A stretch of DNA of 64,000 bases from Bacteroidales bacterium (GTDB taxonomy: Bacteria > Bacteroidota > Bacteroidia > Bacteroidales > PUMT01): positions 13,811-77,810 of the forward strand of contig SLPB01000071.1 in the NCBI GenBank assembly GCA_007132225.1, written 5' to 3'. Positions 5,252-57,409 of the stretch are shown piece after piece. The translations under genes were made by a program, and so were the position numbers. Numbering within the stretch: position 1 is the stretch's first letter; each line of letters starts with the position of its first letter. The notes beneath the pieces are model-generated. The model did no database searches. It had not been told where the DNA came from and was given only the letters and a program-made list of their open reading frames with translations.

Positions 5252-5701
5252 TTATTTTCCTGCAAGTATATTCCGCGATCCGAAGAAAAAATCATTTAAC
5301 GTTGATGAATTAGTTTTATCAAACTCCACCATATAATTGCCATCACGGTAGACAAAAAATTTATCCTGCATATGGCTCGGACAATTATACCGGAATACTT
5401 TCAGATCATTCCTGTAAGACAGTAACTCCATAAAAGCATAGCGCCCGGTTTCCTGGTTATTCAAAAAAACAGGCATTCTTTCATAAATCCGGCCGTCTTT
5501 CCTGAAAGCTTTGACATCTTTTGCATTATACTTAACCCGGCCTGTATCATCAATACCAATCAGACTTGTGGTTAATCCGTAACGAACCTTTTCATAATAT
5601 TTTACATTGTCTTCAGTTATAATGTAGTCCTGTACTCCTGCCCTGACAACTGTTGTCAAGGATAAAAATGCGATTGCCAGTAATAAATTAAATTTTTTCA
5701 T
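5252..5701 (-). CDS. Hypothetical secreted protein
   Basis: 149 aa; signal peptide MKKFNLLLAIAFLSLTTVVRA; GGAGG 9 nt upstream of the ATG. Confidence 0.8.
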   Translation of the reverse strand: MKKFNLLLAIAFLSLTTVVRAGVQDYIITEDNVKYYEKVRYGLTTSLIGIDDTGRVKYNAKDVKAFRKDGRIYERMPVFLNNQETGRYAFMELLSYRNDLKVFRYNCPSHMQDKFFVYRDGNYMVEFDKTNSSTLNDFFFGSRNILAGK

Positions 5702-5995: not shown

Positions 5996-8155
5996 CTACT
6001 TAACGGCAGCTAAGTCTATCAGAAAAGCAAATTCCATTGCAATTTCACGGTAACGCTTGTAACGGCCGGCTGCCCCGCCATGGCCAGCATCCATATTTGT
6101 TTTAAGCAACAATACATTTTGGTCGGTTTTATAGTCCCGGAGCCTGGCAGCCCATTTTGCAGGCTCCCAATACTGCACCTGGGAGTCATGCAGTCCTGTT
6201 GTTATAAGTATAGCAGGGTAATCCTGACGTTTTACCTGATCATACGGGGAATATGACAGCATATATTCATAATAGACAGTATCATTGGGATTACCCCATT
6301 CATCATATTCGCCTGTTGTAAGAGGGATACTGTCGTCAAGCATAGTAGTAACAACATCAACAAAAGGAACAGCTGCAACTACACCACGGTAAAGCTCCGG
6401 ATTCATATTTATGGCAGCGCCAATAAGAAGTCCACCGGCACTTCCGCCCTGGGCAAAAAGTTTTCGCGGACTGGTATAGTTTTGATCAATTAGAAAACGG
6501 GCACAAGCATTAAAATCTGTGAATGTGTTCATCTTATTTAATAGCTTCCCATCCTCATACCAGTTACGCCCCATTTCCTGTCCGCCCCTTACATGGGCTA
6601 TGGCATATATAAAGCCCCTGTCCAGAAGACTCAGTCTGACAGAACTGAACCGGGGATCCATACTGTAGCCGTAGGATCCGTAGCCATATAAAAGCAATGG
6701 GTTGGATCCATCTTTTTTGATTCCTTTCCTGTGAACCAGGGAAACGGGCACCTTTGTTCCGTCCGGGGCAGTTGCATACACTCTTCTTGCCTGGTAATTA
6801 TCCGGTTTAAAATCGCCCAGCACCTCATCCTGTTTGAGTAACGTCATTTCCCTGGACTTCATGTTATAATCGAAAACAGAATTAGGGACTGTAAGAGAGG
6901 TGTAAGACAACCTGAAAATATCACTGTCAAAGTCCGCATTAACAGAAATACCAGCTGTATAAACTTCTTCGGGGAAGTCAAGATAATGCCCGGTTTTATT
7001 GTCCCATTCGTATACATACAGCTGGCGAAGACCATTTTTTCTTTCAGAAATAACCAGGTGATCATTAAAAATCTCAATATCACTTAGTAAAACATCATCC
7101 CTGTGAGGTATAAGCTCAACCCAGTTATCTTTTGAAGTGAGGCTTGTTGAAGTCTCCATAAGCCTGAAATTGGTGGCTTCCCAGTTAGTAAGAACATAAA
7201 ACTTTTCTCCGTGATGATCTACACGGTACTTCATGTCCTTTTCACGAGGATAAAACAAATTAAAAATACCTGCCGGATCACCAGTCCGCGCAAAACGGTA
7301 TTCATCAGATAAAGTGCTGGATGAAATGATCATAATGTATTCCCTGGATTTGGTTGTAAACACTCCCACCCTGAATGTCTCGTCTTCTTCATAATAAACA
7401 AGGTCACGGTCATCAGGCTCATTACCAAGCAAATGGCGGTACACTTTTTCTGATCTTAAAGTAATATCATTTTGAGTGGTATAATATATTGTCCGGCTGT
7501 CACCGGCCCATGCTACATAACCATCGGTTTCCGTAATATTATCTGGTAAAAACTCTCCGGTTTCCAGGTCCTTGAATGCAAGGGAATATTTTCTACGTCC
7601 CACAGAATCAACCCCAAAAGCAAGAAGCTTGTTATCCGGGCTCACATTAAGACCTGAAACATGATAGAAGCTGTATCCTTCAGCCATCTCATTAACATTC
7701 AGCAATATTTCCTCTTCACCATCGGGATTTCCCTTTTTCCTGCAATAAATAGGAAATTCACCACCTTCTTCATACCGGGTATAATAATAATAGCCATTAT
7801 CCAAATAAGGAACCGACTCATCTGTTTGCTTAATTCTGCCAATAATCTCGTCATACAGTTTCTCCTGGAGAGGTTCAGTATGCTCAAGCATAGCTTTGGT
7901 ATACTCATTTTCTGCCTCCAGGTACCTGATCACTTCAGGGTCTTCCCGCTCACGCAGCCAGTAATAATTATCAACCCTGGTATCGCCGTGTACGGTTATT
8001 TCGTGGGGTATCTTCCTGGCCCGGGGAGGCTCGATTTTTGCTTGTCCGGATAAGGGAGAAAAAGATAATAATGAAATGTATAACATAATTATAATTAATT
8101 CTGATAATGACTTTATCATTACTGTCAAGAATTTGAATTTTAAACAGTTTGCCAA
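5996..8155 (-). CDS. ptrB: Oligopeptidase B (S9A), probably exported; true start may be a downstream Met
   Basis: DNYYWLR, LLYGYGSYG, HVRGGQEMG, GGSAGGLL, EYDEWGNP, DSQVQYWEPAKW, AGHGG. Confidence 0.93.
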   Translation of the reverse strand: MANCLKFKFLTVMIKSLSELIIIMLYISLLSFSPLSGQAKIEPPRARKIPHEITVHGDTRVDNYYWLREREDPEVIRYLEAENEYTKAMLEHTEPLQEKLYDEIIGRIKQTDESVPYLDNGYYYYTRYEEGGEFPIYCRKKGNPDGEEEILLNVNEMAEGYSFYHVSGLNVSPDNKLLAFGVDSVGRRKYSLAFKDLETGEFLPDNITETDGYVAWAGDSRTIYYTTQNDITLRSEKVYRHLLGNEPDDRDLVYYEEDETFRVGVFTTKSREYIMIISSSTLSDEYRFARTGDPAGIFNLFYPREKDMKYRVDHHGEKFYVLTNWEATNFRLMETSTSLTSKDNWVELIPHRDDVLLSDIEIFNDHLVISERKNGLRQLYVYEWDNKTGHYLDFPEEVYTAGISVNADFDSDIFRLSYTSLTVPNSVFDYNMKSREMTLLKQDEVLGDFKPDNYQARRVYATAPDGTKVPVSLVHRKGIKKDGSNPLLLYGYGSYGYSMDPRFSSVRLSLLDRGFIYAIAHVRGGQEMGRNWYEDGKLLNKMNTFTDFNACARFLIDQNYTSPRKLFAQGGSAGGLLIGAAINMNPELYRGVVAAVPFVDVVTTMLDDSIPLTTGEYDEWGNPNDTVYYEYMLSYSPYDQVKRQDYPAILITTGLHDSQVQYWEPAKWAARLRDYKTDQNVLLLKTNMDAGHGGAAGRYKRYREIAMEFAFLIDLAAVK

Positions 8156-8236: not shown

Positions 8237-10105
8237 TTACCTTCTTGGTATGAGATCGGCATACTGATCCGTGTTGCCGTTTTCAAGACATGTTTCAATT
8301 ATTTGTCTGCCGAGATCCGATAATTCAGGAACAAGATATTGTGAAAGCTGTTCTTTAAAAAAAGCGTTCAAAATCTCCGATCCTTTGTCATATCCGTCGA
8401 AACCCACTAATTCCTGCCTGTATACTTTAAGAAATCTTGAAGGTATTTTCGCCCCCTCTATGGTAAGGTAATTAAGCTCATAACCCAGCAGGGTGCATCG
8501 TGCAGGCTGGTATTGATCCGAACGGAATTTTGCATTGCCACGGCGGGTCAGATATTCACGCATCAGTAGTTGAGGCTTAAACCCGACTTTCCATACGCCA
8601 ATATGCTGATTGGGTGTAAGAACATATTGGGTAACTGAATTATCCACGATCTGTTCAAGGAGAAGATTTGCATGCCTCACCTTCTTGCCCGTGGCAAAAG
8701 GCCAGTATGACCCTACGCCCTCGCTGCCCATCTTGTCAGACTCGGTTATACTTGGATTTGCATGCCCTCTGGGAGACACCAGCCTCCAGAGCCAGGCCAG
8801 GGCAGGAGGAAGAATGTGGAACAAGCCAATTATGCCGTAACTTGGCTGTTCAGCTGAACAGGGGGGGGTCCGGACCCCAAAGCTTCTTACATCTACCGAA
8901 ACAGGCTTGCTCACAACTCCGGGGAAAAGATTCCTGGGCACTACTACACGGGGGTTTGGGCACGGCTTACCCGGCTCATCTTCAGTATGGTTCCAGATCA
9001 GGGCTGTCCCTCCGGGGTTGGAATTAATATTCAAAAACAATAAAGGCTCTGTGGCATTTATTGTGAGTTTTTCGATTTGTGGTTCACAACCATAACTGGT
9101 GATATTATCAGTGCGGATAAACCAGCCGTTTTCAGCATCCATTATACGCAATCTCATTCCTCCTGTCTCGAAAGATGGATGAACAATGCCCATATCATCG
9201 CAAACGGGGTTAATCTTGCAAAACTGGGGAATAGTGGTGCTCCGTTTCTCGCCGGACGTAATATGTTCACCAATCAAAACAGAGCCTTCAGGCTCCCTAA
9301 CTATCATCTGAAGCATTTCGCTTTTTCCGCCCCCACTCGCACCCTCATGCATAAAAGTGGTCACGTTATCGTAGGGACTGATGGACTGAACGGCTGAACA
9401 ATGGGGAGCAGACCAGCCTTCTTCTTCTCCAATTGAAAGGAGAACTCCGTAAATACCTTTTTTTGCACTGGGACCGGGATAAAGGTTATAGGAAAAGATC
9501 TCATATACCTCATCCGTCCTGTTATGAACAACTACCTGTTTCCCGTCAAAATGTGTATGTCTGAATGTGGGTGCAACATAAACAACAGACTTTATATCTA
9601 TCTTCTCGTTAATCTCATCAGTGTTTACTATCTTTTGCAACAGCGACAATCCCATGCAAAAAAACGCAGCATTAGCAGGGGCTATGGCTATTCCGTAGTA
9701 AGCAAATTCAGGGGGGCCTATCTGGAAAATGAAATAACCCAGCTCCTGTTCTTCCAGCCACTTGAGGGAATCAGCTCTCAGGAAGTCAAATTCCTTTTTG
9801 AACCTGTCTCTGTACCTTGGTTTATCACTGGGTTTATTATCGGCAACTATCAGTGTGTCAGGATCCCTCCTGCGCATATAGGTTTCGGTATAATTAACAG
9901 ATATCCCATTTGTAACCCGGTGAACAACAGCTTCGGTTACCTCCCCTTTTCCTTCAACATTGTACTTTACGTCAAAGGAATTGTTATTTTTTCCGCCAAG
10001 GGCAGCTTCAGCAAGTTCAAGGGTTGTATTAAAGCATTGACAAGCTTTGCAATTATTTAACAAGGCCCTTGTGTCCGCCGGAATATTGATTTTATCTAAA
10101 GGCAT
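8237..10105 (-). CDS. DUF4914-family protein, PEP-carboxykinase-like fold (see findings)
   Basis: 622 aa; NLYPGPSAKKGIYG, HCSA, P-loop GASGGGKS, CDD, ENGWFIR, NPRVVVP. Confidence 0.85.
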   Translation of the reverse strand: MPLDKINIPADTRALLNNCKACQCFNTTLELAEAALGGKNNNSFDVKYNVEGKGEVTEAVVHRVTNGISVNYTETYMRRRDPDTLIVADNKPSDKPRYRDRFKKEFDFLRADSLKWLEEQELGYFIFQIGPPEFAYYGIAIAPANAAFFCMGLSLLQKIVNTDEINEKIDIKSVVYVAPTFRHTHFDGKQVVVHNRTDEVYEIFSYNLYPGPSAKKGIYGVLLSIGEEEGWSAPHCSAVQSISPYDNVTTFMHEGASGGGKSEMLQMIVREPEGSVLIGEHITSGEKRSTTIPQFCKINPVCDDMGIVHPSFETGGMRLRIMDAENGWFIRTDNITSYGCEPQIEKLTINATEPLLFLNINSNPGGTALIWNHTEDEPGKPCPNPRVVVPRNLFPGVVSKPVSVDVRSFGVRTPPCSAEQPSYGIIGLFHILPPALAWLWRLVSPRGHANPSITESDKMGSEGVGSYWPFATGKKVRHANLLLEQIVDNSVTQYVLTPNQHIGVWKVGFKPQLLMREYLTRRGNAKFRSDQYQPARCTLLGYELNYLTIEGAKIPSRFLKVYRQELVGFDGYDKGSEILNAFFKEQLSQYLVPELSDLGRQIIETCLENGNTDQYADLIPRR

Positions 10106-10275: not shown

Positions 10276-12411
10276 CTATAATTTATCTGAGTCTTTCATG
10301 CTCAGCTGTATTCGCTTTCGGGCAACATCCACTTCAATTACCCTAACCCTGACGGTGCTGTTGAGGCTCACCACATCATTGGGATTGGTTACAAACCTGT
10401 CGGCCAGCTGAGAAATATGAACCAGTCCGTCCTGTTTAACTCCAATATCTACAAATGCCCCGAATCTTGTAATGTTGGTAACTATACCGGGCAATATCAT
10501 ACCCGGTTTAAGATCTTCAATTTTGAACACATCACTGGAAAACTCAAAAACTTCAATTTTGCTACGGGGATCACGGCCCGGCTTAGCCAATTCCTCCATA
10601 ATATCATTGAGTGTAGGCAGTCCGGTACTTTCTGTGGTATATTTTTTTATGTCGATCTTTGTTCTCAGGCCCTCATTTTTTATCAGGTCATCAACGGAAG
10701 AACTCATATCTGCAGCCATCTGCTCCACAATCTTATATGATTCGGGATGCACAGCAGAATTATCCAGTGGATTTGAAGCTCCCTGTATACGAAGAAAACC
10801 AGCTGATTGTTCAAACGCCTTGCCGCCAAGTCTGGAGACCTTTTTTAACTCGGCCCTGGATCGAAAAGGGCCGTTTTGCTTTCTGTAATCAACAATATTT
10901 TGTGCCAGCTGCGGACCCAGTCCGGAGACATAATTAAGCAGGTGCTTACTGGCAGTATTAAGATTAACTCCCACCAGGTTTACGCAGCTTTCAACAACCT
11001 GATCCAGGCCCTCCTTTAGTCTGCCCTGATCCACATCATGCTGGTACTGTCCTACTCCGATTGATTTAGGGTCTATCTTGACAAGCTCGGCAAGCGGGTC
11101 TGCCAGCCGCCTTCCTATTGATACTGCTCCTCTAACGGTAACATCATAATCAGGGAATTCCTCCCTTGCAGTTTTCGAAGCAGAATAAACAGATGCCCCG
11201 TTTTCATTTACCATAAAAACCTGAATATCACGATCGAATTTAACCTTTTTGACAAAATATTCAGTTTCCCTGCTGGCAGTACCATTGCCAATTGATATAG
11301 CTTCTATTTTATACTGACTAACCAGTGATGCAATTTTTTTCGCAGCCTTTCCATAATCATTCTGAGGAGGATGAGGAAAGATGGTCTCATTATGAAGCAG
11401 GTTCCCCTCGGCATCCAGGCAAACAACCTTGCAACCCGTTCTGTAACCAGGATCAATGGCCAGTATACGTTTTTGTCCGAGTGGCGGTGCCAGGAGCAAT
11501 TGCTTGAGGTTATCAGCAAAGACAGATATGGCCTCACCATCAGCTTTCTCCTTTGAAGCAGCCCTGAACTCGGTTTCCAAAGACGGCCCCAGAAGTCGTT
11601 TATAGCAGTCCGCAACAGCAATATCCATATGATGGGACGATTCACCAGTTCCTTTAACGAATAATCGTTTTAGAATATCGAGTGCTTTCTCTTCTGAAGG
11701 TTCTATTGAAACCCTGAGAATGCCTTCATCCTCCCCTCTCCTAATGGCAAGAAGCCTGTGGGAAGGGCAACGATTAAGCTTTTCCGAAAATTCAAAATAA
11801 TCCTTGTATTTTTCTCCCTCATCCTCTTTTTTCTTAACCAGTCGTGAAAAAATATAAGCTTCCCGGTCAAAAAGATTCCTAGTGCGGTCCCTGGCCAGCT
11901 TATCTTCACTGATCCATTCAGCAACAATATCCCTTGCTCCTTGCAGCGCAGCATCTACATCAGGAATTTCGTCATTAATATAATTGTGAGCAACAATTCC
12001 GGGATTTTCTTCCTTTTGCTGCATAATGATTTCAGCAAGAGGTTCCAGCCCTTTTTCCCTGGCAACCGATGCCCTGGTTCTTCTTTTTGGTCTGAAAGGA
12101 AGATAGATATCCTCCAGTTCTGAAATACTCTGGGATGAATCAAGTAGCTGCCTTAATTCTGGTGTGAGCTTATCCTGTTCTTCAACAGATCTTTTTATAG
12201 CTTCCCGTCTCTTGTCAAGTTCGTCAAGGCGGACAGCATGCTGTTTTATATCACCAATTTGAACTTCATCAAGGCTTCCGGTCAGCTCCTTACGATAACG
12301 GCTGATAAAAGGTATGGTTGCCCCTTCATTTAATAATTTGAGAGTATTCTCAACCTGGCGTAACTGCAGGTTAAGAAGTCCTGAAATGATATTACTGTGT
12401 TGCCGGTCCAT
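10276..12411 (-). CDS. tex: Tex-family transcription accessory protein (YqgF, HhH and S1 domains)
   Basis: GATIPFISRYRKE, LAIDPGYRTGCK, VNENGASVYSAS, KIDPKSIGVGQYQHDV, C-terminal S1 domain (FGAFVDIGVKQDGLVHIS). Confidence 0.96.
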   Translation of the reverse strand: MDRQHSNIISGLLNLQLRQVENTLKLLNEGATIPFISRYRKELTGSLDEVQIGDIKQHAVRLDELDKRREAIKRSVEEQDKLTPELRQLLDSSQSISELEDIYLPFRPKRRTRASVAREKGLEPLAEIIMQQKEENPGIVAHNYINDEIPDVDAALQGARDIVAEWISEDKLARDRTRNLFDREAYIFSRLVKKKEDEGEKYKDYFEFSEKLNRCPSHRLLAIRRGEDEGILRVSIEPSEEKALDILKRLFVKGTGESSHHMDIAVADCYKRLLGPSLETEFRAASKEKADGEAISVFADNLKQLLLAPPLGQKRILAIDPGYRTGCKVVCLDAEGNLLHNETIFPHPPQNDYGKAAKKIASLVSQYKIEAISIGNGTASRETEYFVKKVKFDRDIQVFMVNENGASVYSASKTAREEFPDYDVTVRGAVSIGRRLADPLAELVKIDPKSIGVGQYQHDVDQGRLKEGLDQVVESCVNLVGVNLNTASKHLLNYVSGLGPQLAQNIVDYRKQNGPFRSRAELKKVSRLGGKAFEQSAGFLRIQGASNPLDNSAVHPESYKIVEQMAADMSSSVDDLIKNEGLRTKIDIKKYTTESTGLPTLNDIMEELAKPGRDPRSKIEVFEFSSDVFKIEDLKPGMILPGIVTNITRFGAFVDIGVKQDGLVHISQLADRFVTNPNDVVSLNSTVRVRVIEVDVARKRIQLSMKDSDKL

Positions 12412-35029: not shown

Positions 35030-35878
35030 ATGAGTGATGTTGTTATTAATTCAGTGATTATTGTTGGTGCGATGGGATTGGCGGCAGCCATAATTCTTTT
35101 CATGGTTGCCCAGAAATTCCACGTAGTCGAAGATCCCCGTATAGACCAGGTGGAGGAGGAACTGCCTGCTGCAAACTGTGGGGGCTGCGGATACCCGGGT
35201 TGCCGTGCTTTTGCGGAAGCACTTGTTAAAACAGATGATATATCAGATTTGCATTGTCCGGTAAGCGACAAAGATTCCATGGAAAAAATTGCCGCCATAT
35301 TAGGGAAAGAAATGGGAGAAATGAAACCACTGGTGGCAGTGGTACGCTGCGCCGGATCACCGGATAAGAGTCCCAGGACAAATATATACGACGGCACCCA
35401 TTCCTGTACAATCATATCTTCATTATATACAGGAGAAACAGGTTGTCCTTACGGCTGCCTCGGAATGGGCGAATGTGTTGATGCCTGTAATTTTGATGCT
35501 ATCCATATGAATGCGGATACTCAGCTCCCCGAGGTTACGGATGATCTGTGCACAGCCTGCAATGCATGTGTAGTGGCATGTCCCAGGGATATTATTGAGC
35601 TGCGAAAAAAGAATAAGAAAGATCGTAAAATCTTTGTATCCTGCATCAATGAGGATAAAGGAGGAGTAGCAAGAAAGAACTGCAAGGTGGCCTGCATCGG
35701 ATGCGGCAAATGTGTGAAAGTTTGCCCGTATGAGGCAATAACTCTGGAAAACAATCTTGCGTATATAGATCCTGATAAGTGCAGACTTTGCAGGAAATGT
35801 GCCCCGGAATGTCCCACGAATGCAATTCTGGAGATCAATTTCCCTGTAAAAAAGAAAAAGGAAGCAACAGCCGGGTAG
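35030..35878 (+). CDS. rnfB: Rnf complex subunit B (polyferredoxin)
   Basis: TM anchor, LPAANCGGCGYPGC, GCLGMGECVDAC, CTACNACVVACP, CIGCGKCVKVCP, CRLCRKCAPECP. Confidence 0.95.
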   Translation: MSDVVINSVIIVGAMGLAAAIILFMVAQKFHVVEDPRIDQVEEELPAANCGGCGYPGCRAFAEALVKTDDISDLHCPVSDKDSMEKIAAILGKEMGEMKPLVAVVRCAGSPDKSPRTNIYDGTHSCTIISSLYTGETGCPYGCLGMGECVDACNFDAIHMNADTQLPEVTDDLCTACNACVVACPRDIIELRKKNKKDRKIFVSCINEDKGGVARKNCKVACIGCGKCVKVCPYEAITLENNLAYIDPDKCRLCRKCAPECPTNAILEINFPVKKKKEATAG

Positions 35879-35984
35879 ATAACCCCAATAGCAAGTCAGG
35901 AAATTCCGGGAGCGATGGGTTGATTAAGATAAGATAAAGAACGGCAAATATTTATATAAATAAAAATCAGCAGGAGGTTAAAAA

Positions 35985-37316
35985 GTGATAAAAACATTTC
36001 CCAAAGGCGGCATACATCCCCCGGAGGATAAATTCTCGGCAGGCAGTCCTATTCAGGAACTCCCCCTTCCAAAATCCGTTATCATCCCTGTCTGCCAGCA
36101 CCTGGGGTCTCCCTCGGAGCCACTTGTAAAGAAGGGAGACCGGGTGAAGACCGGACAGATAATAGCTAAAAGCAGCGGTTTTGTCTCCACCAATATCCAC
36201 TCATCGGTAACCGGCAAGGTGGAAAAAGTCGACAAATTTACAGACAGCACCGGATACAGAAGGCTGGCAGTCTCAATTAATGTGGAAAAGGACCAGTGGG
36301 AAGATAATATTGACACCAGCAATACACTGAAAAAGCAAATAAATTCCAAGGCAGAAGAAATAATCAAAAAAATCCTGGATGCAGGGATCGTCGGAATGGG
36401 CGGGGCCACCTTTCCTTCACATATAAAACTGTCCGTGCCTAAAGGCAAAAAAGTCGAAGTGCTTATAATCAATGGTGTAGAGTGTGAGCCCTGCCTTACC
36501 TCAGACCACAGGCTGATGCTGGAAAAAGGAGAAGAGATGATGGTTGGGGTCCGGCTTATGATGACAGCCCTTGGTGTTAACAGAGCCGTAATTGGAATTG
36601 AAAACAATAAGCCCGATGCTATAAGCAACCTGAAAACAATTGCCAAAGATTACAAGACTATAGAAGTTCAGGTTTTAAAGGTGAAATATCCTCAGGGCGC
36701 AGAAAAACAGTTGATAAAATCCATCACCCGCCGGGAAGTACCTTCCGGAAAACTTCCAATTGAAGTTGGAGCAGTTGTCCATAACGTGGAAACTGCGTAT
36801 GCAGTTTATGAGGCAGTCCAGAAAAATAAGCCTCTTATAGAAAGAGTTGTTACGGTTACCGGGAAAAATATCGCCAAACCCTCCAATTTCATGGTAAGAA
36901 CAGGAACCCCGGTCGCATATCTCATTGAGGCGGCGGGAGGTCTCCCGGAAGATACAGGCAAAATAATTAACGGCGGACCGATGATGGGTAAGGCGCTCAA
37001 CTCCCTCGATGTGCCGGTAACAAAGGGAACATCTGGTATACTCGTTGTTCCCCAGTCAGAATCATTACGCAGGCCTGCACTTAACTGTATCAGGTGCGCA
37101 AAATGTGTAAGCATTTGTCCAATGGGGCTGGAACCCTACCTGCTCAGGGCGGCTTCCGAACATAAAAAATGGGATATTGTGGAGGAGGAGCGTTCGATGG
37201 ACTGTATGGAATGCGGATCATGCAGCTATGTTTGTCCCTCCGCCATCCCTTTACTGGATTATATCCGTCTGGGCAAATCAACGGTAAGTAAAATCATCAG
37301 GTCAAGGAAACAATGA
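35985..37316 (+). CDS. rnfC: Rnf complex subunit C
   Basis: GTG start; TFPKGGIHPP, GIVGMGGATFP, NGVECEP, KYPQGAEKQLI, GGPMMG, CIRCAKC..CP, CMECGSC..CP. Confidence 0.97.
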   Translation: MIKTFPKGGIHPPEDKFSAGSPIQELPLPKSVIIPVCQHLGSPSEPLVKKGDRVKTGQIIAKSSGFVSTNIHSSVTGKVEKVDKFTDSTGYRRLAVSINVEKDQWEDNIDTSNTLKKQINSKAEEIIKKILDAGIVGMGGATFPSHIKLSVPKGKKVEVLIINGVECEPCLTSDHRLMLEKGEEMMVGVRLMMTALGVNRAVIGIENNKPDAISNLKTIAKDYKTIEVQVLKVKYPQGAEKQLIKSITRREVPSGKLPIEVGAVVHNVETAYAVYEAVQKNKPLIERVVTVTGKNIAKPSNFMVRTGTPVAYLIEAAGGLPEDTGKIINGGPMMGKALNSLDVPVTKGTSGILVVPQSESLRRPALNCIRCAKCVSICPMGLEPYLLRAASEHKKWDIVEEERSMDCMECGSCSYVCPSAIPLLDYIRLGKSTVSKIIRSRKQ

Positions 37317-37443
37317 TATATCTTTTCAGCTTTCAGTTAACAGATCTAATAAACCTGAACCTTTAATGGTTCTGAAAATAAATTTACCAGATCACGACTT
37401 TGTAACTAAATGATAAATAATTTCAGAAATCCGATTCATACCA

Positions 37444-38445
37444 ATGGATAAATTAATTACCGTCTCTCCCTCACCCCATTATTACGGAGACACCACCGTA
37501 AAAAAACTCATGTACGGGGTTGTATTTGCCCTGCTGCCTGCATTTTTTGTTTCTGTATATTTCTTTGGGATCGGGGCATTGATTGTTACCGCAATTAGCA
37601 TACTATCCTGCCTGGCTTTCGAATACCTGATTCAGAAATACCTGATGAAAGCGGAGCCTTCTATAAGCGACGGATCGGCACTGGTAACGGGGCTCCTGCT
37701 GGCCTTCAATCTTCCCACGAACCTGCCCTGGTGGATAATAATTATCGGGGCCCTGGTTGCAATCGGGGTTGGAAAGATGACTTTCGGGGGACTGGGGAAT
37801 AACCCCTTTAATCCCGCACTGGTAGGCAGGGTGTTTTTGTTCATTTCTTTCCCTGTTCAGATGACCAGCTGGCCAACACCTATAGCCTCAAGACTTCAAT
37901 ACACCGATGCGGTTACCGGACCAACCCCGCTGGGAATTATGGAAGAAGGATTATCTCAACAAGAAACGGCGGCCCAGCTAATGGAACAGATCCCCGGATA
38001 TATGGAACTCTTCCTGGGCTCTATTCGTGGCAGCATGGGAGAAATATCGGCTATCGCCCTGATCGTGGGGGGAATATATATGCTGATAAGAAAAATTATT
38101 ACCTGGCACATCCCGGTATCCATTATCCTGTCGGTACTGGCTTTCACCGGGATACTCTGGTTGATGAATCCATATGATAATGCCGACCCTCTTTTCCACC
38201 TGCTTAGCGGAGGATTGATGCTGGGGGCAATCTATATGGCAACAGATTATGTAACTTCCCCAATGACGATAAAGGGTATGTGGATATTCGGTATCGGTAT
38301 CGGTGTGATAACCGTTGCCATAAGGGTGTTTGGAGCATATCCGGAAGGAGTATCGTTCGCTATACTGATAATGAACGCTTTTGTACCCCTTATAAATAAA
38401 TATGTTAAACCTAAAGGATTCGGAGAGGAGGTGAGAAATGGCTAA
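37444..38445 (+). CDS. rnfD: Rnf complex subunit D
   Basis: SPSPH, FGGLGNNPFNPALVGR, FMN-site DAVTGPTPL, MATDYVTSP, YPEGVSFAIL. Confidence 0.97.
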   Translation: MDKLITVSPSPHYYGDTTVKKLMYGVVFALLPAFFVSVYFFGIGALIVTAISILSCLAFEYLIQKYLMKAEPSISDGSALVTGLLLAFNLPTNLPWWIIIIGALVAIGVGKMTFGGLGNNPFNPALVGRVFLFISFPVQMTSWPTPIASRLQYTDAVTGPTPLGIMEEGLSQQETAAQLMEQIPGYMELFLGSIRGSMGEISAIALIVGGIYMLIRKIITWHIPVSIILSVLAFTGILWLMNPYDNADPLFHLLSGGLMLGAIYMATDYVTSPMTIKGMWIFGIGIGVITVAIRVFGAYPEGVSFAILIMNAFVPLINKYVKPKGFGEEVRNG

Positions 38446-39484
38446 AAGAGAATCTACCTTCATTAATATGGTAATGGCGCTGCTGACAATAACTCTTATT
38501 GCATCTGCTTCCCTGGGATTTATTTATGAGCTGACCAAAGAACCGATCGAAAGAGCCGCCCTGGCTAAAAGAAATGAGGCTATCGGCTCAGTAGTGCCGG
38601 AATTTGATAATGACCCTTTCGGGGAACAGTACACCATAGAGATACCCGAGGGAGAACTGGTGGTGTTTCCGGCTAAAAAAGACGGGGAGATCACAGGAGT
38701 GGCCATAGAAACATTTACCAACAGGGGGTTTAGCGGTGAAATAAGATTGATGGTGGGAATACTGCCCGATGGCACCATTCACGGCATTGAAGTCCTAGAA
38801 CACAGGGAAACACCCGGTCTTGGCGATAAAATTGAATCGGACAAGTCAGATTTCCATTTGCAGTTCGAAGGAGAAAATCCAAAAGAAGACTTCCAGATCA
38901 GGATCAGGCAGGATGGCGGGGATATAGATGCCATAACGGCAACCACAATAAGCTCCAGGGCATACTGTGATGCAGTGCAGCGTGCCTGGAACGCATATAT
39001 GGATGTGGATACCGGGAATGGACACGAACTGCCCTCAACAGAGGAAGCAATAAACAGTGTACTGCCTGAATATGGCAACAATCCGGTTAATGAAGAGTAC
39101 CAGGTAGTACATGAAGACAAAGTTTTTAATATTTACCCGGGCAGAAAGGGAAGAAGGTTTACCGGCATCGCAGTTGAGTCATATTCAGAATCAGGATATA
39201 TGGGACCAATAAGACTTTTGACAGGCTTTAATCCAGATGGAATTATAACGGGAGTTGAGGTGCTGGAACACCAGGAGACCCAGGGATATGGCGACCTGAT
39301 TGAAAATAGCAGATCGGACTTCTACAAACAATTCATAGGCAGGAATCCCTCTGAAGAAGTTCTGAATTTAAGGGAAGATGGAGGAGTAATTGACGGAATC
39401 AGTGGTGCAACAGTTACCTCACAGGCCTATTGTGAAGCGGTCCGCCTTGCATATGAGGTGTTTGAAAAGGAGGGAAAGAAATAA
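38438..39484 (+). CDS. rnfG: Rnf complex subunit G with two tandem FMN-binding domains
   Basis: One TM helix, then two homologous domains: H.ETPGLG...DAITATTISS and H.ETQGYG...DGISGATVTS; 348 aa. Confidence 0.93.
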   Translation: MAKRESTFINMVMALLTITLIASASLGFIYELTKEPIERAALAKRNEAIGSVVPEFDNDPFGEQYTIEIPEGELVVFPAKKDGEITGVAIETFTNRGFSGEIRLMVGILPDGTIHGIEVLEHRETPGLGDKIESDKSDFHLQFEGENPKEDFQIRIRQDGGDIDAITATTISSRAYCDAVQRAWNAYMDVDTGNGHELPSTEEAINSVLPEYGNNPVNEEYQVVHEDKVFNIYPGRKGRRFTGIAVESYSESGYMGPIRLLTGFNPDGIITGVEVLEHQETQGYGDLIENSRSDFYKQFIGRNPSEEVLNLREDGGVIDGISGATVTSQAYCEAVRLAYEVFEKEGKK

Positions 39485-39582
39485 TGGGACAGCCAAATAA
39501 TATAACAGGCTGACCTTCCGGAAAAAATAACGGGTTACAATGCATTACTGCATTTGAAATAAACACAACAGCTATAATTATT

Positions 39583-40158
39583 ATGGATCAGGTAAAAAAT
39601 TTCACCAAAGGGTTTATAAGGGAAAACCCGGTATTTGCCCTGATGCTGGGGTTGTGCCCGGCACTCGGTACAACAACCTCGGCATATAACGGAATGGGCA
39701 TGGGACTTGCCACATTGTTTGTGGTTGTAATGTCAAACATCGTGGTTTCCCTGATAAAAAATTTTGTTCCCAACAAGGTCAGAATACCCAGCTATATAGT
39801 TATAATTGCTTCCTTTGTCACGATCGTCGACCTGGTAATGGCAGGATACATGCCGGCATTGCATGAACAGCTCGGACTCTTTATTCCACTTATCGTAGTG
39901 AACTGCTTTGTCCTGGGACGTGCTGAAGCCTTTGCTCAAAAGAACACACTGGGCTCCTCAATAATTGACGGCACCGGAATGGGGCTCGGATTTACCCTGG
40001 CGCTTACCATGCTGGGAGCTGCCCGTGAGATCCTGGGTAGTTATTCCCTGTTTGGGTTTCAGTTTATCCGGGACGACGGAATGCTGATATTTATCCTTGC
40101 TCCCGGCGCATTCATTGCTTTGGGATACCTGATAGCACTGACAAATAGATTGAAATAA
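39583..40158 (+). CDS. rnfE: Rnf complex subunit E
   Basis: ENPVFALMLGLCPALG, KVRIP, FIPLIVVNCFVLGRAEAFA. Confidence 0.97.
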   Translation: MDQVKNFTKGFIRENPVFALMLGLCPALGTTTSAYNGMGMGLATLFVVVMSNIVVSLIKNFVPNKVRIPSYIVIIASFVTIVDLVMAGYMPALHEQLGLFIPLIVVNCFVLGRAEAFAQKNTLGSSIIDGTGMGLGFTLALTMLGAAREILGSYSLFGFQFIRDDGMLIFILAPGAFIALGYLIALTNRLK

Positions 40159-40176
40159 CAGAAAACAACAGCAGCC

Positions 40177-40749
40177 ATGGAATATATTGCAATTGTATTG
40201 TCAGCCATACTGGTTAATAACATAGTACTGGCACAATTTCTCGGACTTTGTCCCTTTTTCGGGGTATCAAACAAAATATCCACCGCCGCAGGTATGGGTG
40301 GCGCCGTCTTATTTGTAATGACAGTTGCCGCTATAGTCACCTACCTGATATCACACTACATTCTTATTCCCTATGACCTTATTTACCTGAGGACCGTTAC
40401 CTATATCCTGGTAATCTCTTCCCTGGTGCAGATGGTGGAGATCATCCTCAAAAAAGTCAGTCCCCCGCTCTACCAGGCACTCGGGATATTCCTGCCACTG
40501 ATGACCACCAACTGTGCAATTCTCGGTGTGGCGATACTGGTAATTCAACAGGAACACACTCTTATTAGCGGGGTGGTTTTTGCAATTGCACACGCCATAG
40601 GCTTTACCCTCGCACTTGTTATACTTGGAGGTATCCGCGAGCAGCTGGAGCTTCTGAATGTACCCAAAGGTATGAGAGGCAACCCGGTAATACTGGTTGC
40701 TGCCGGATTGCTGGCAATGGCTTTTATGGGATTTGCGGGTATTGTCTGA
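40177..40749 (+). CDS. rnfA: Rnf complex subunit A
   Basis: NNIVLAQFLGLCPFFGVS, LGIFLPLMTTNCAILG, GIRE, MAFMGF. Confidence 0.97.
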   Translation: MEYIAIVLSAILVNNIVLAQFLGLCPFFGVSNKISTAAGMGGAVLFVMTVAAIVTYLISHYILIPYDLIYLRTVTYILVISSLVQMVEIILKKVSPPLYQALGIFLPLMTTNCAILGVAILVIQQEHTLISGVVFAIAHAIGFTLALVILGGIREQLELLNVPKGMRGNPVILVAAGLLAMAFMGFAGIV

Positions 40750-56197: not shown

Positions 56198-57409
56198 ATG
56201 GTTACAACAAAAAAAATAAAAGGAGTAATTGGCATCCTTACGGGTGGCGGAGATGTCCCTGGACTGAATCCTGCAATCAGGGCAGTAACGATCAGGGCGA
56301 TTCGTGAAGGCTACAAAGTTATTGGTATACGCCGTGGCTGGGCAGGCATAATGGAAATGAAACCCGACCCCAAAGCAAACAACAAAGCCTATTACATTGA
56401 GTTGACAGAAGAGATAGTTAACAGGGCCGGACGCACAGGTGGTACGTTTCTGCACAGTTCACGTACCAATCCGAGCAAAGTAAAAAAGATACATATACCA
56501 GATCATCTTAAGGATAAATACAAAGATGATATCAATGATCTGACTCCTGAGGTACTGAAGAACCTGGCATTTCTTGGTATAGATTTCATGATCCCTATCG
56601 GAGGAGATGACACCCTGAGCTATGGAGTTAGATTGTACAAGGAGGGAGTAAAGGTTATAGCTATTCCAAAAACAATGGATAATGATGTGCCCGGAACCGA
56701 CTATTGTATAGGATTCAGTACCTGCATCACCCGTACCATTATGATGACCCACATATTGCGCACCTCAGCGGGTTCTCATGAACGTTTTCTTGTTCTTGAA
56801 GTTTTTGGAAGGTACGCCGGATTCACAGCTATGCTTCCAACTATGGCAGGAGCAGCAAACCGCTGCGTAATACCTGAATACAAGTTTGATGTGGAGAAAC
56901 TTACCAAGCTGATGGTGGAAGACCGCAAGAAGAACCCCAGTAATTATTCAGTAGTTCTTATTTCTGAAGGAGCAATGTACCAGGGGGGGGAAATGGTTTT
57001 CCAGAGCCAGGAGAAAGATGCTTACGGGCATGCTAAACTTGGAGGAATAGGAGACCTTGTATCCAACGAGATGACGAAGATCTCATCAAAATTTAACGGA
57101 GGTACTCCAATAAACGTAATCAATCAGAAACTGGGATATCTTGTAAGAGGTGGCGATCCTGATGCCATTGACTCCATTGTACCTATGGCTTTTGGGAACC
57201 TTGCCCTTGACCTTATCCTTAAAGGTATACACGGAAGGCTCGTTGTACTTCAGAACGGACGCTACGATAATGTACCTATAGATGTTGTTACAAGTACCAA
57301 GAAACTGGTGGATGTCAAAAAGCACTACAATATCGAAAGGTTAAGACCCATTTACGAGAGTTTTGAAATGAAACCGCTTTTTTTGATGACCGGAGAGACA
57401 GATAACTAG
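56198..57409 (+). CDS. pfkA: 6-phosphofructokinase (PfkA family) with a PPi-type signature
   Basis: ILTGGGDVPGLN, GGTFLHSSR, GGDDT, PKTMDND, EVFGRYAGF, LGYLVRGG. Confidence 0.9.
   Translation: MVTTKKIKGVIGILTGGGDVPGLNPAIRAVTIRAIREGYKVIGIRRGWAGIMEMKPDPKANNKAYYIELTEEIVNRAGRTGGTFLHSSRTNPSKVKKIHIPDHLKDKYKDDINDLTPEVLKNLAFLGIDFMIPIGGDDTLSYGVRLYKEGVKVIAIPKTMDNDVPGTDYCIGFSTCITRTIMMTHILRTSAGSHERFLVLEVFGRYAGFTAMLPTMAGAANRCVIPEYKFDVEKLTKLMVEDRKKNPSNYSVVLISEGAMYQGGEMVFQSQEKDAYGHAKLGGIGDLVSNEMTKISSKFNGGTPINVINQKLGYLVRGGDPDAIDSIVPMAFGNLALDLILKGIHGRLVVLQNGRYDNVPIDVVTSTKKLVDVKKHYNIERLRPIYESFEMKPLFLMTGETDN

What the first reader, a model, noticed from the sequence alone, without database searches (positions are those of the whole stretch)
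8237..10105. DUF4914 protein retains the PEP-carboxykinase catalytic constellation: candidate unrecognised PEPCK-class enzyme
Seen in the sequence, compared by eye with E. coli PckA: R80 in RRRDPDTLIV (cf. GRSPKDKYIV, R65); K215/K216 in YPGPSAKKGIY (cf. YGGEMKKG, K212/K213); H235 in HCSA (cf. H232 in HCSA, with the same 19-residue K-to-H spacing); P-loop GASGGGKS 255-262 (cf. GLSGTGKT); D303/D304 in VCDD (cf. IGDD, D268/D269); AENGWFIR (cf. FEGGCYAK); R386 in PNPRVVVP (cf. ENTRVSYP, R333). Established: these residues bind Mn2+, Mg-nucleotide and PEP/OAA in ATP-PEPCK. Inference: this uncharacterised family is an active, divergent PEPCK-fold carboxykinase or kinase with unknown phosphoryl donor (ATP, GTP or PPi) and possibly a different substrate. 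It occurs in an anaerobe that also has Rnf and a PPi-type PFK. I cannot tell whether this link is already published.
Basis: partly seen in the sequence, partly recalled or inferred. Interest (0 to 1): 0.8.

Follow-up and report, generated by a model that had tools for sequence, protein, structure and literature searches.

The report
PEPCK-like enzyme of unknown reaction (DUF4914)
This gene encodes a typical member of DUF4914, a widespread, very conserved and unstudied bacterial protein family that has the whole fold and every catalytic residue of the central-metabolism enzyme PEP carboxykinase, yet sits beside an ordinary PEP carboxykinase in the same genome, so it is very probably an active enzyme of that type whose exact reaction is still unmeasured.

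Summary
Window 8237-10105 (-) is an intact 622-aa ORF and a full-length DUF4914 member (PF16260, 932 bits). Plain sequence searches find no PEPCK. Profile-profile comparison with ATP-PEPCK gives 98-99% probability (E 3e-13 local, 6e-19 global; shuffled and reversed controls E 0.07-0.87). An AlphaFold2 model (pLDDT 95.7) hits only PEP carboxykinases in the PDB (E to 3.5e-23, TM to 0.77).

The alignment pairs R80, Y209, K215/K216, H235, S257, K261/S262, D304, R331, N384 and R386 with E. coli R65, Y207, K212/K213, H232, S250, K254/T255, D269, K288, N331 and R333. All but S262, which varies only Ser/Thr (15 and 2 of 17), are invariant or nearly so down to 27% identity. The adenine contacts R449/T455 are not kept.

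The family matches neither the ATP nor the GTP Pfam model and scores about equally against both classes. It does not replace PckA: this genome has a canonical pckA, as do 35 of 41 other DUF4914 genomes. No operon is conserved.

Best reading: an active Mn2+/Mg2+-NTP carboxykinase-type enzyme, a fourth PEPCK class, with reaction and donor unproven. I found no publication on it. Other agents of this scan have reached the same reading repeatedly.

The parts
8237..10105 (-). DUF4914 coding sequence (622 aa), a full-length two-domain PEPCK-superfamily protein
   Evidence: ORF. PF16260 at 932 bits. hhalign to ATP-PEPCK, Prob 99.2%. AF2 pLDDT 95.7. Foldseek top hits are all PEPCK.
9866..9874 (-). R78-R79-R80. 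R80 is equivalent to E. coli PckA R65 (OAA/PEP/CO2-binding Arg of the N-terminal domain). R78 is a DUF4914-specific invariant (Thr in PckA).
   Evidence: R80 is 17/17 in alignment A2.
9458..9481 (-). YPGPSAKK 209-216. Y209 = Y207, G211 = G209, K215 = K212, K216 = K213 (Mn2+ ligand).
   Evidence: All are 17/17 in A2 and 32/32 in the PckA alignment.
9392..9403 (-). HCSA 235-238. H235 = H232 (Mn2+ ligand).
   Evidence: H is 16/17, with one Gln.
9317..9343 (-). P-loop GASGGGKSE 255-263. S257 = S250, K261 = K254, S262 = T255 (Mg2+ ligand). E263 is a DUF4914-specific invariant (Thr in PckA).
9200..9265 (-). Segment of about 22 residues (281-302) with no counterpart in ATP-PEPCK. It partly matches the strand that precedes GDD in GTP-PEPCK.
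   Evidence: hhalign alignments. Predicted as beta strands 287-290 and 297-303.
9194..9199 (-). D303-D304, equivalent to PckA D268-D269 (D269 is a Mn2+ ligand).
   Evidence: Both 17/17. D304 = D269. VCDD aligned to IGDD of a GTP-PEPCK.
9113..9133 (-). ENGWFIR 325-331. E325 = E282, F329 = Y286, R331 = K288 (phosphate contact).
9083..9085 (-). E341, aligned to E297 (ribose contact in ATP-PEPCK). It is D or E in 15 of 17 family members.
8948..8956 (-). NPR 384-386. N384 = N331 and R386 = R333 (OAA/PEP-binding).
   Evidence: Both 17/17.
8696..8725 (-). SEGVGSYWPF 461-470, the most conserved family signature. E462 = E400 and F470 = F413, in the region that forms the active-site lid in PEPCKs.
   Evidence: (used as the search pattern).
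8558..8572 (-). QLLMR 512-516, the region aligned to the adenine-binding motif of ATP-PEPCK. R449 aligns to Q512 and T455 to M515 (not kept). R456 aligns to R516 (kept).

Best explanation
The gene encodes an active enzyme of the PEP-carboxykinase superfamily. It belongs to a separate, uncharacterised sequence class (DUF4914) that is about equally distant from the ATP and GTP classes.

Shown:
- It is homologous to PEPCK over both the N-terminal and the P-loop domains.
- A confident model has the PEPCK fold.
- The family keeps, invariant or nearly so, the counterparts of the Mn2+ ligands (K216, H235, D304).
- It keeps the P-loop Lys and Ser/Thr that hold Mg-NTP (K261, S262) and the phosphate contact (R331).
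- It keeps every known oxaloacetate/PEP/CO2 contact (R80, Y209, S257, N384, R386).

Inferred:
- It binds Mn2+ and a Mg2+-nucleoside triphosphate. An acidic residue remains at the ribose-contact position, while the adenine-specific contacts are lost, so the base preference is open.
- It catalyses a carboxykinase-type reaction, most likely oxaloacetate + NTP <-> PEP + CO2 + NDP, or the same chemistry on a close analogue.
- Because it nearly always coexists with a canonical PckA, its role is not redundant. It may differ in donor, preferred direction, regulation or substrate.
- In this window it is a stand-alone gene with no functionally linked neighbours.
For: - hhalign of DUF4914 against ATP-PEPCK: Prob 99.2%, E 5.7e-19 (global) and 98.0%, 3.1e-13 (local), with clean shuffled and reversed controls. 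With E. coli PckA as the reference row: Prob 98.9%, E 1.2e-16.
- AF2 model: pLDDT 95.7, pTM 0.93.
- Foldseek against the PDB: 118 hits at E <= 0.001, and the top 50 listed are all PEPCKs (1oen 3.5e-23; ATP-class TM 0.74-0.77).
- Of the 47 family invariants, 19 fall on PckA columns that carry the identical residue in >=31 of 32 sequences.
- Strong purifying selection: the 120 best of at least 8000 homologues are >=64% identical.
- Relatives are present in at least 598 species-representative genomes.
- Links to the PEP/OAA/CO2 node elsewhere: a GTP-PEPCK lies directly upstream on the same strand in L114, a beta-carbonic anhydrase lies near DUF4914 in 3 of 90 loci, directly downstream in two of them, and PurE follows it in 5 loci.
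Against: - No biochemical data exist for any member. The library holds no paper with DUF4914 or PF16260.
- The genome already has a canonical pckA (TIGR00224, 814 bits), and so do 35 of 41 other DUF4914 genomes. A second enzyme for the same reaction needs a reason.
- There are DUF4914-only invariants that could redefine substrate or donor: E58, R78, R182, Q190, H194, E263, R446, N450, S452.
- Adenine contacts are not conserved.
- Gene context is heterogeneous, with no conserved metabolic operon.
Confidence: 0.6

Rival explanations
1. Same fold and phosphoryl-transfer machinery, but a different substrate. The enzyme would be a Mn2+/NTP-dependent kinase or carboxykinase acting on another 2-oxo or enol acid or a phosphorylated acid, not on oxaloacetate/PEP.
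For: - It coexists with a canonical PckA in 85% of the genomes examined.
- It carries family-specific invariant charged residues absent from PckA (R78, R182, H194, E263, R446).
- It has extra segments such as 281-302.
- The recurrent neighbour is an HTH_3 regulator of the kind that often senses a small molecule: 25 of 81 loci, with a Cupin_2 domain in the L117 lineage.
Against: Every residue known to contact OAA/PEP and CO2 in PckA is kept invariant (R80, Y209, S257, N384, R386). That would be unexpected if the substrate had changed much. In addition, no neighbouring genes point to another pathway.
Confidence: 0.27
2. A PEP carboxykinase that uses PPi/Pi instead of a nucleotide. This would be a compact PPi-type enzyme suited to the PPi-based energy economy of this anaerobe.
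For: - The window encodes a PFK with the PPi-type GGDD/PKTMDND signature, and Rnf.
- The adenine contacts are lost.
- PPi-PEPCK structures give the highest query-normalised TM-scores (0.69-0.73, against 0.60-0.66 for the nucleotide classes).
Against: - A canonical GxxGxGK[ST] P-loop and an acidic residue at the ribose-contact position are conserved, which fits a nucleotide.
- Sequence identity to PPi-PEPCK chains in the structural alignments is the lowest (10-12%).
- The higher TMq may only reflect the much larger target.
- The paper comparing the three classes could not be read.
This reading is a sub-case of the best explanation with a different donor.
Confidence: 0.1
3. A non-catalytic or regulatory PEPCK-fold protein, either a pseudoenzyme or an HPr-kinase-like protein kinase.
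For: It is a second PEPCK-fold protein in the genome and has no operon context.
Against: - All catalytic and metal ligands are invariant down to 27% identity, which pseudoenzymes do not show.
- There is no Hpr_kinase_C match even at E <= 10.
- The N-terminal domain is PEPCK-like, with the R65 equivalent.
- No HPrK structure is among the top 50 Foldseek hits.
Confidence: 0.03

Closest known systems
ATP-dependent PEP carboxykinase (PckA, EC 4.1.1.49; Pfam PEPCK_ATP PF01293; e.g. E. coli 1AQ2/1OEN/2PXZ, T. thermophilus 1J3B/1XKV)
   Same: - Two-domain fold (Foldseek E 3.5e-23, TM 0.74-0.77).
- Homology over about 500 columns.
- Identical Mn2+ ligands, P-loop Lys and Ser/Thr, and OAA/PEP/CO2 contacts, with the same K-to-H spacing of 19 residues.
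   Different: - Only 14-18% identity, and no match to PF01293 or TIGR00224.
- About 80 residues longer, with inserted segments such as 281-302.
- Adenine contacts R449/T455 are replaced by Q512/M515.
- K288 becomes R331 and T256 becomes E263, and there is a family-specific invariant set.
- It coexists with a true PckA in the same genome.
GTP-dependent PEP carboxykinase (EC 4.1.1.32; Pfam PEPCK_N PF17297 + PEPCK_GTP PF00821; e.g. 2QZY, 2FAH, 4R43)
   Same: - Fold (Foldseek E about 1e-22 to 1e-20).
- A hhalign score against a single GTP-PEPCK (58) close to that against single ATP-PEPCKs (62-65).
- VCDD aligns with IGDD, AENGWF with PEAGYF, and NPR with NSR.
   Different: - No Pfam match.
- TM normalised by target is lower (0.60-0.67).
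- The guanine-binding residues were not examined.
- In L114 a true GTP-PEPCK sits next to a DUF4914 gene, so the two are distinct proteins.
PPi-dependent PEP carboxykinase (EC 4.1.1.38; 6K31, 8E1U)
   Same: PEPCK core fold. These structures give the highest query-normalised TM (0.69-0.73). Like PPi-PEPCK, DUF4914 mostly coexists with a canonical PEPCK (for PPi-PEPCK, as stated in PMC8100219).
   Different: PPi-PEPCK has about 1100 residues against 622 here. Identity is 10-12%. Donor use by DUF4914 is unknown, and its conserved P-loop and ribose-position acid favour a nucleotide.
HPr kinase/phosphorylase (Pfam Hpr_kinase_C PF07475)
   Same: A P-loop domain of the PEPCK-like superfamily (established knowledge of the fold class).
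   Different: DUF4914 has no PF07475 match and also has the PEPCK N-terminal domain and the OAA/PEP-binding arginines. No HPrK is among the top 50 structural hits.

Membership tests
DUF4914 (Pfam PF16260) | Full-length match to the family HMM above the gathering score | tested here: met
   932 bits against a cut-off of 25.7, profile positions 2-612 of 612. One copy in the genome.
PEP carboxykinase superfamily (fold level) | Two-domain PEPCK fold (N-terminal domain plus P-loop nucleotide domain) | tested here: met
   AF2 pLDDT 95.7. The Foldseek top 50 are all PEPCKs, E down to 3.5e-23, TM up to 0.77.
PEP carboxykinase superfamily (fold level) | Statistically supported sequence-profile homology | tested here: met
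   hhalign Prob 98.0-99.2%, E 3e-13 to 6e-19; controls E >= 0.07.
PEP carboxykinase superfamily (fold level) | Catalytic constellation: Mn2+ ligands K/H/D, P-loop K and S/T, and the substrate Arg pair plus Tyr | tested here: met
   K216, H235, D304, K261, S262, R80, R386 and Y209 align to K213, H232, D269, K254, T255, R65, R333 and Y207. Seven of the eight are invariant or nearly so; S262 varies only Ser/Thr (15 and 2 of 17).
PEP carboxykinase superfamily (fold level) | The residues cluster into one active site in 3D | not testable with these tools
   Model coordinates are not exposed, and Foldseek output gives no residue-level superposition.
ATP-PEPCK (PF01293 / TIGR00224, EC 4.1.1.49) | Match to the family models | tested here: not met
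   No PF01293 hit even at E <= 10, and no NCBIfam hit. The genome's real PckA scores 679 bits on PF01293 and 814 bits on TIGR00224.
ATP-PEPCK (PF01293 / TIGR00224, EC 4.1.1.49) | Adenine-binding residues (E. coli R449, T455) | tested here: not met
   They align to Q512 and M515, and neither position conserves Arg or Thr in the family.
ATP-PEPCK (PF01293 / TIGR00224, EC 4.1.1.49) | OAA + ATP <-> PEP + ADP + CO2 activity | not testable with these tools
   Needs an enzyme assay.
GTP-PEPCK (PF17297 + PF00821, EC 4.1.1.32) | Match to the family models | tested here: not met
   No hit at E <= 10. The true GTP-PEPCK in L114 scores 553 and 347 bits.
GTP-PEPCK (PF17297 + PF00821, EC 4.1.1.32) | Guanine-binding aromatic residues | not tested
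   The local alignment to the GTP-PEPCK ends at residue 408, before that region.
PPi-PEPCK (EC 4.1.1.38) | Protein of about 1100-1150 aa with the class-specific extra domains | tested here: not met
   This protein has 622 aa. TM normalised by the target is only 0.40-0.43.
HPr kinase/phosphorylase | Hpr_kinase_C domain match and an HPrK-type N-terminal domain | tested here: not met
   No PF07475 hit. The N-terminal half aligns to the PEPCK N-terminal domain.

The most novel reading that the evidence does not exclude
DUF4914 is a fourth functional class of PEP carboxykinase, or a carboxykinase with a new phosphoryl donor or a new 2-oxo-acid substrate. It would work alongside PckA in anaerobic Bacteroidales and in scattered other phyla, for example as the CO2-fixing, PEP-to-oxaloacetate arm of succinate/propionate fermentation. 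That would add an unrecognised enzyme to the PEP-pyruvate-oxaloacetate node.
Probability: 0.5. Interest if true: 0.75.

Novelty: new variant of a known kind. Interest (0 to 1): 0.6.

Why it matters
The PEP-pyruvate-oxaloacetate node controls carbon flow between glycolysis, gluconeogenesis and the TCA cycle. The 2020 review of this node (PMC8100219) lists only ATP-, GTP- and PPi-dependent PEPCKs.

DUF4914 has relatives in at least 598 species-representative genomes. The listed best hits are mostly anaerobic Bacteroidales and Marinilabiliales from sediments, digesters and guts, and the family is also present in Thermotoga maritima. It is under very strong purifying selection. Metabolic models of these organisms ignore it.

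If it proves to be a carboxykinase with its own donor, direction or substrate, models of CO2 fixation and of succinate and propionate production in these organisms would need revising. The claim is directly testable with one recombinant protein and standard coupled assays.

This particular copy is a typical, stand-alone member and adds no special context of its own.

Tried and rejected
1. phmmer and a 20-sequence HMM against PDB sequences gave only noise, so the link needs profile-profile or fold methods.
2. The first AF2 run, on 20 close homologues, gave pLDDT 56, with the catalytic half below 50. I discarded it. A 150-row alignment with divergent representatives and fragments gave pLDDT 95.7.
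3. BLASTP suggested that IMDAENGW pairs with PckA IGDDEHGW, so that D323 would be the Mn2+ Asp. I rejected this. hhalign puts D304 on D269 and E325 on E282, and the GTP-class alignment pairs VCDD with IGDD.
4. Anticorrelation with pckA is rejected. PckA is in 35 of 41 DUF4914 genomes against 36 of 61 in the background, and DUF4914 is in 3 of those 61, two of them with PckA.
5. No operon is conserved across 81 loci. Only an HTH_3 regulator (25 loci), Sua5 (11) and PurE (5) recur. The contexts of divergent members differ from one another.
6. The beta-carbonic-anhydrase/CO2 lead from earlier notes holds in only 3 of 90 loci and not in this window.
7. The promoter and terminator scan around the gene was no better than shuffles, and Rfam found nothing in the window.
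8. The search for related loci with the divergent alignment A2 failed because it has no conserved stretch. I used A1 instead.
9. The literature holds no paper with DUF4914, PF16260 or a relevant 'PEPCK-like'. The JBC 2019 paper comparing PEPCK classes is not held.
As a result I could not do a genome-wide carbonic-anhydrase search, whole-genome scripts or an expression check.
Full report
**Observation**

Window 8237-10105 (minus strand) is an intact ORF of 622 codons, from ATG to TAA. Pfam places it in DUF4914 (PF16260) at 932 bits over profile positions 2-612 of 612. The only other listed hit, at E <= 10, is a sub-threshold FlhE match (E 0.024, 15.1 bits against a cut-off of 25), so no PEPCK or HPr-kinase model matches it. 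NCBIfam has no model for it.
- RRR 78-80
- YPGPSAKK 209-216
- HCSA 235-238
- GASGGGKS 255-262
- DD 303-304
- AENGWFIR 324-331
- NPR 384-386

The spacing from K216 to H235 is 19 residues, the same as K213 to H232 in E. coli PckA (sequence from NC_000913.3).

**Is the resemblance more than chance?**

Ordinary sequence methods say nothing. phmmer and a family HMM against all PDB sequences return only noise. BLASTP against the genome's own PckA is not significant (best E 0.19).

Profile-profile comparison is decisive. I aligned 17 DUF4914 proteins spanning 27-82% identity to the query (alignment A2). I compared them with 31 ATP-PEPCKs taken from this genome and from other genomes of the phylum.
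- hhalign gives Prob 99.2%, E 5.7e-19 over 506 columns in global mode.
- In local mode it gives Prob 98.0%, E 3.1e-13, with columns 105-593 against 101-532.
- A reversed PEPCK profile and ten column-shuffled ones give E 0.07-0.87 and scores of 19 or less.

**Fold**

A first AlphaFold2 run on 20 close homologues was poor (pLDDT 56). A second run used a 150-row alignment of divergent representatives and fragments from the exhaustive search. It gave mean pLDDT 95.7 and pTM 0.93, with no segment below 50.

Foldseek against the PDB returns 118 hits at E <= 0.001, and the top 50 listed are all PEP carboxykinases:

| Class | Example entries | Scores |
|---|---|---|
| ATP | 1oen, 1aq2, 1xkv, 1j3b, 1ii2 | E to 3.5e-23; target-normalised TM 0.73-0.77 |
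| GTP | 2qzy, 2fah, 4r43, 2rk8 | target-normalised TM 0.60-0.67 |
| PPi | 6k31, 8e1u | query-normalised TM 0.69-0.73 |

No HPr kinase appears among those 50.

**Residue map**

With E. coli PckA as the reference row (hhalign Prob 98.9%, E 1.2e-16), the equivalences are as follows:

| E. coli PckA | This protein | Note |
|---|---|---|
| R65 | R80 | |
| Y207 | Y209 | |
| G209 | G211 | |
| K212 / K213 | K215 / K216 | |
| H232 | H235 | |
| S250 | S257 | |
| K254 / T255 | K261 / S262 | |
| D269 | D304 | |
| E282 | E325 | |
| K288 | R331 | |
| E297 | E341 | D or E in 15 of 17 members |
| N331 | N384 | |
| R333 | R386 | |
| R456 | R516 | |

By established knowledge of ATP-PEPCK structures, K213, H232 and D269 bind Mn2+, K254 and T255 hold the Mg-nucleotide, and R65, Y207 and R333 bind oxaloacetate/PEP and CO2.

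The PDB entries in the Foldseek hit list include E. coli mutants at R65, Y207, G209, K212, K213, S250, K254 and D269. All eight positions carry the E. coli residue in DUF4914.

Across the family, 19 of 47 invariant or near-invariant positions fall on PckA columns that carry the identical residue in at least 31 of 32 sequences.

The BLASTP alternative, with D323 as the metal-binding Asp, is rejected. The alignment to a GTP-PEPCK pairs VCDD directly with that class's IGDD.

The adenine contacts R449 and T455 align to Q512 and M515 and are not conserved.

A DUF4914-only invariant set exists: E58, R78, R182, Q190, H194, P210, E263, R446, N450 and S452. These residues are candidates for whatever differs in donor or substrate.

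**Position within the superfamily**

Against single sequences, the DUF4914 profile scores 62-65 for ATP-PEPCKs and 58 for a GTP-PEPCK. The family is therefore about equally distant from both nucleotide classes, and it matches none of their Pfam or NCBIfam models. It is best described as a separate class of the PEPCK superfamily.

**Distribution and selection**

- The 90%-clustered database holds at least 8000 homologues, and the 120 best are all at least 64% identical.
- At 50% clustering only about ten full-length clusters exist.
- Relatives occur in at least 598 species-representative genomes. The 80 best loci are mostly Bacteroidales and Marinilabiliales, with outliers labelled Verrucomicrobiia, Halieaceae and Ca. 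Edwardsbacteria.
- The family is also present in the Thermotoga maritima control genome.

**Relation to pckA**

This genome has one DUF4914 gene and a canonical pckA on another contig (PF01293 at 679 bits, TIGR00224 at 814 bits).

PckA is present in 35 of 41 other DUF4914-bearing genomes, against 36 of 61 in a phylum-wide sample. In that sample DUF4914 occurs in 3 genomes, and 2 of them have PckA.

DUF4914 is an addition to PckA, not a substitute for it.

**Context**

In the window the gene lies between an S9 oligopeptidase (5996-8155) and a Tex-like protein (10276-12411), all on the minus strand. The gaps are 81 and 170 bp, and the neighbourhood is housekeeping genes. Promoter-like and terminator-like sites are no more frequent than in shuffles. 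Rfam finds nothing in the window.

Across 81 loci the recurrent neighbours are:
- an HTH_3 regulator, in 25 loci and mostly directly upstream on the same strand; an HTH_3 + Cupin_2 protein also lies nearby in the 54%-identical L117 lineage
- Sua5, in 11 loci
- PurE, in 5 loci

A true beta-carbonic anhydrase lies near DUF4914 in 3 of 90 loci, directly downstream (46-nt gap) in two of them. One divergent member follows a true GTP-PEPCK on the same strand. These are hints of a link to the PEP/OAA/CO2 node, but they are minority contexts and none is present here.

**Mechanism**

Shown: homology, fold and a complete, conserved catalytic constellation.

Inferred:
- an active enzyme that binds Mn2+ through K216, H235 and D304;
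- a Mg2+-nucleotide bound through the P-loop, with the base preference open;
- a carboxylate substrate held by R80, R386, N384, S257 and Y209.

Because all known OAA/PEP/CO2 contacts are kept, I favour OAA + NTP <-> PEP + CO2 + NDP, or very similar chemistry, at about 0.6. The main rival is a changed substrate, at about 0.27. A PPi donor is possible: the organism has a PFK with the PPi-type GGDD/PKTMDND signature, and Rnf. It is disfavoured by the intact P-loop and the acidic residue at the ribose position. A pseudoenzyme is very unlikely.

**Novelty**

The library holds no paper that mentions DUF4914 or PF16260. The 2020 review of the node lists only three PEPCK types (PMC8100219).

I could not check whether Pfam's clan assignment or InterPro already places the family in the PEPCK superfamily. 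Any HHpred or Foldseek user would find the link.

Within this scan the same conclusion has been reached many times: 36 notes matched my word search, and the eight shown all describe DUF4914 as PEPCK-like. I formed my reading before seeing those notes, and I tested the parts of their claims that I could.

This copy is a typical stand-alone member. The interest lies in the family.

**Limits**

- Model coordinates are not exposed, so I could not measure 3D clustering of the residues.
That prevented a genome-wide carbonic-anhydrase search, whole-genome scripts and an expression check.

Noticed in passing
window 35030-40749 (+): A complete RnfB-C-D-G-E-A operon. The RnfG ORF (38438-39484) is long at 348 aa and has two FMN_bind stretches. 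This agrees with another first-reader note about a duplicated FMN-binding domain.
   Followed up: partly
window 56198-57409 (+): A 403-aa phosphofructokinase with GGDD and PKTMDND, the Asp/Lys signature of PPi-dependent PFKs. NCBIfam only just passes it as an 'ATP-dependent' subfamily (255.5 bits against a cut-off of 253), so automatic annotation would probably mislabel the donor.
   Followed up: partly
L001:1354-2988 (own genome, contig C128): The genome's canonical PckA is only 43-48% identical to the PckAs of 30 other genomes of the same phylum. PckAs of DUF4914-bearing genomes mostly score lower on PF01293 (643-741 bits) than those of the phylum sample (up to 769 bits). This could reflect a distinct PckA subclade, or simply taxonomy.
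   Followed up: no
L114:5749-10004: In a MAG (GCA_028689495.1), a canonical GTP-PEPCK and a divergent DUF4914 (38% identical to the query) are adjacent on the same strand with a 395-bp gap, downstream of histidine-biosynthesis genes.
   Followed up: partly
L098:7894-8544 and L110:7894-8544; L088:8729-9379: A beta-carbonic anhydrase (Pro_CA, 130 bits) lies 46 nt downstream of DUF4914 in a Proteiniphilum lineage. The third locus (L088) has one about 1.5 kb downstream.
   Followed up: partly
L039:837-1409 and 24 other loci; L117:12197-12778: A transcription regulator of about 190 aa (HTH_3; HTH_3 + Cupin_2 in the L117 lineage) recurs next to DUF4914, mostly directly upstream on the same strand. 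It is absent from this window. It may be a dedicated small-molecule-sensing regulator of the gene.
   Followed up: partly
G069:C8:78872-78994, G095:C34:15133-15315, G085:C253:2001-2195: ORFs of about 300 aa in three DUF4914-bearing genomes give weak PF01293 hits (about 24 bits) restricted to model positions 186-248, the region from KK through HCSA to the P-loop. They may be another small PEPCK/HPrK-like P-loop protein.
   Followed up: no
window 5252-5701 (-): A 149-aa ORF with no Pfam match, downstream of the oligopeptidase gene. Another first-reader note flags it as an orphan secreted protein with a possible sigma-54 promoter.
   Followed up: no
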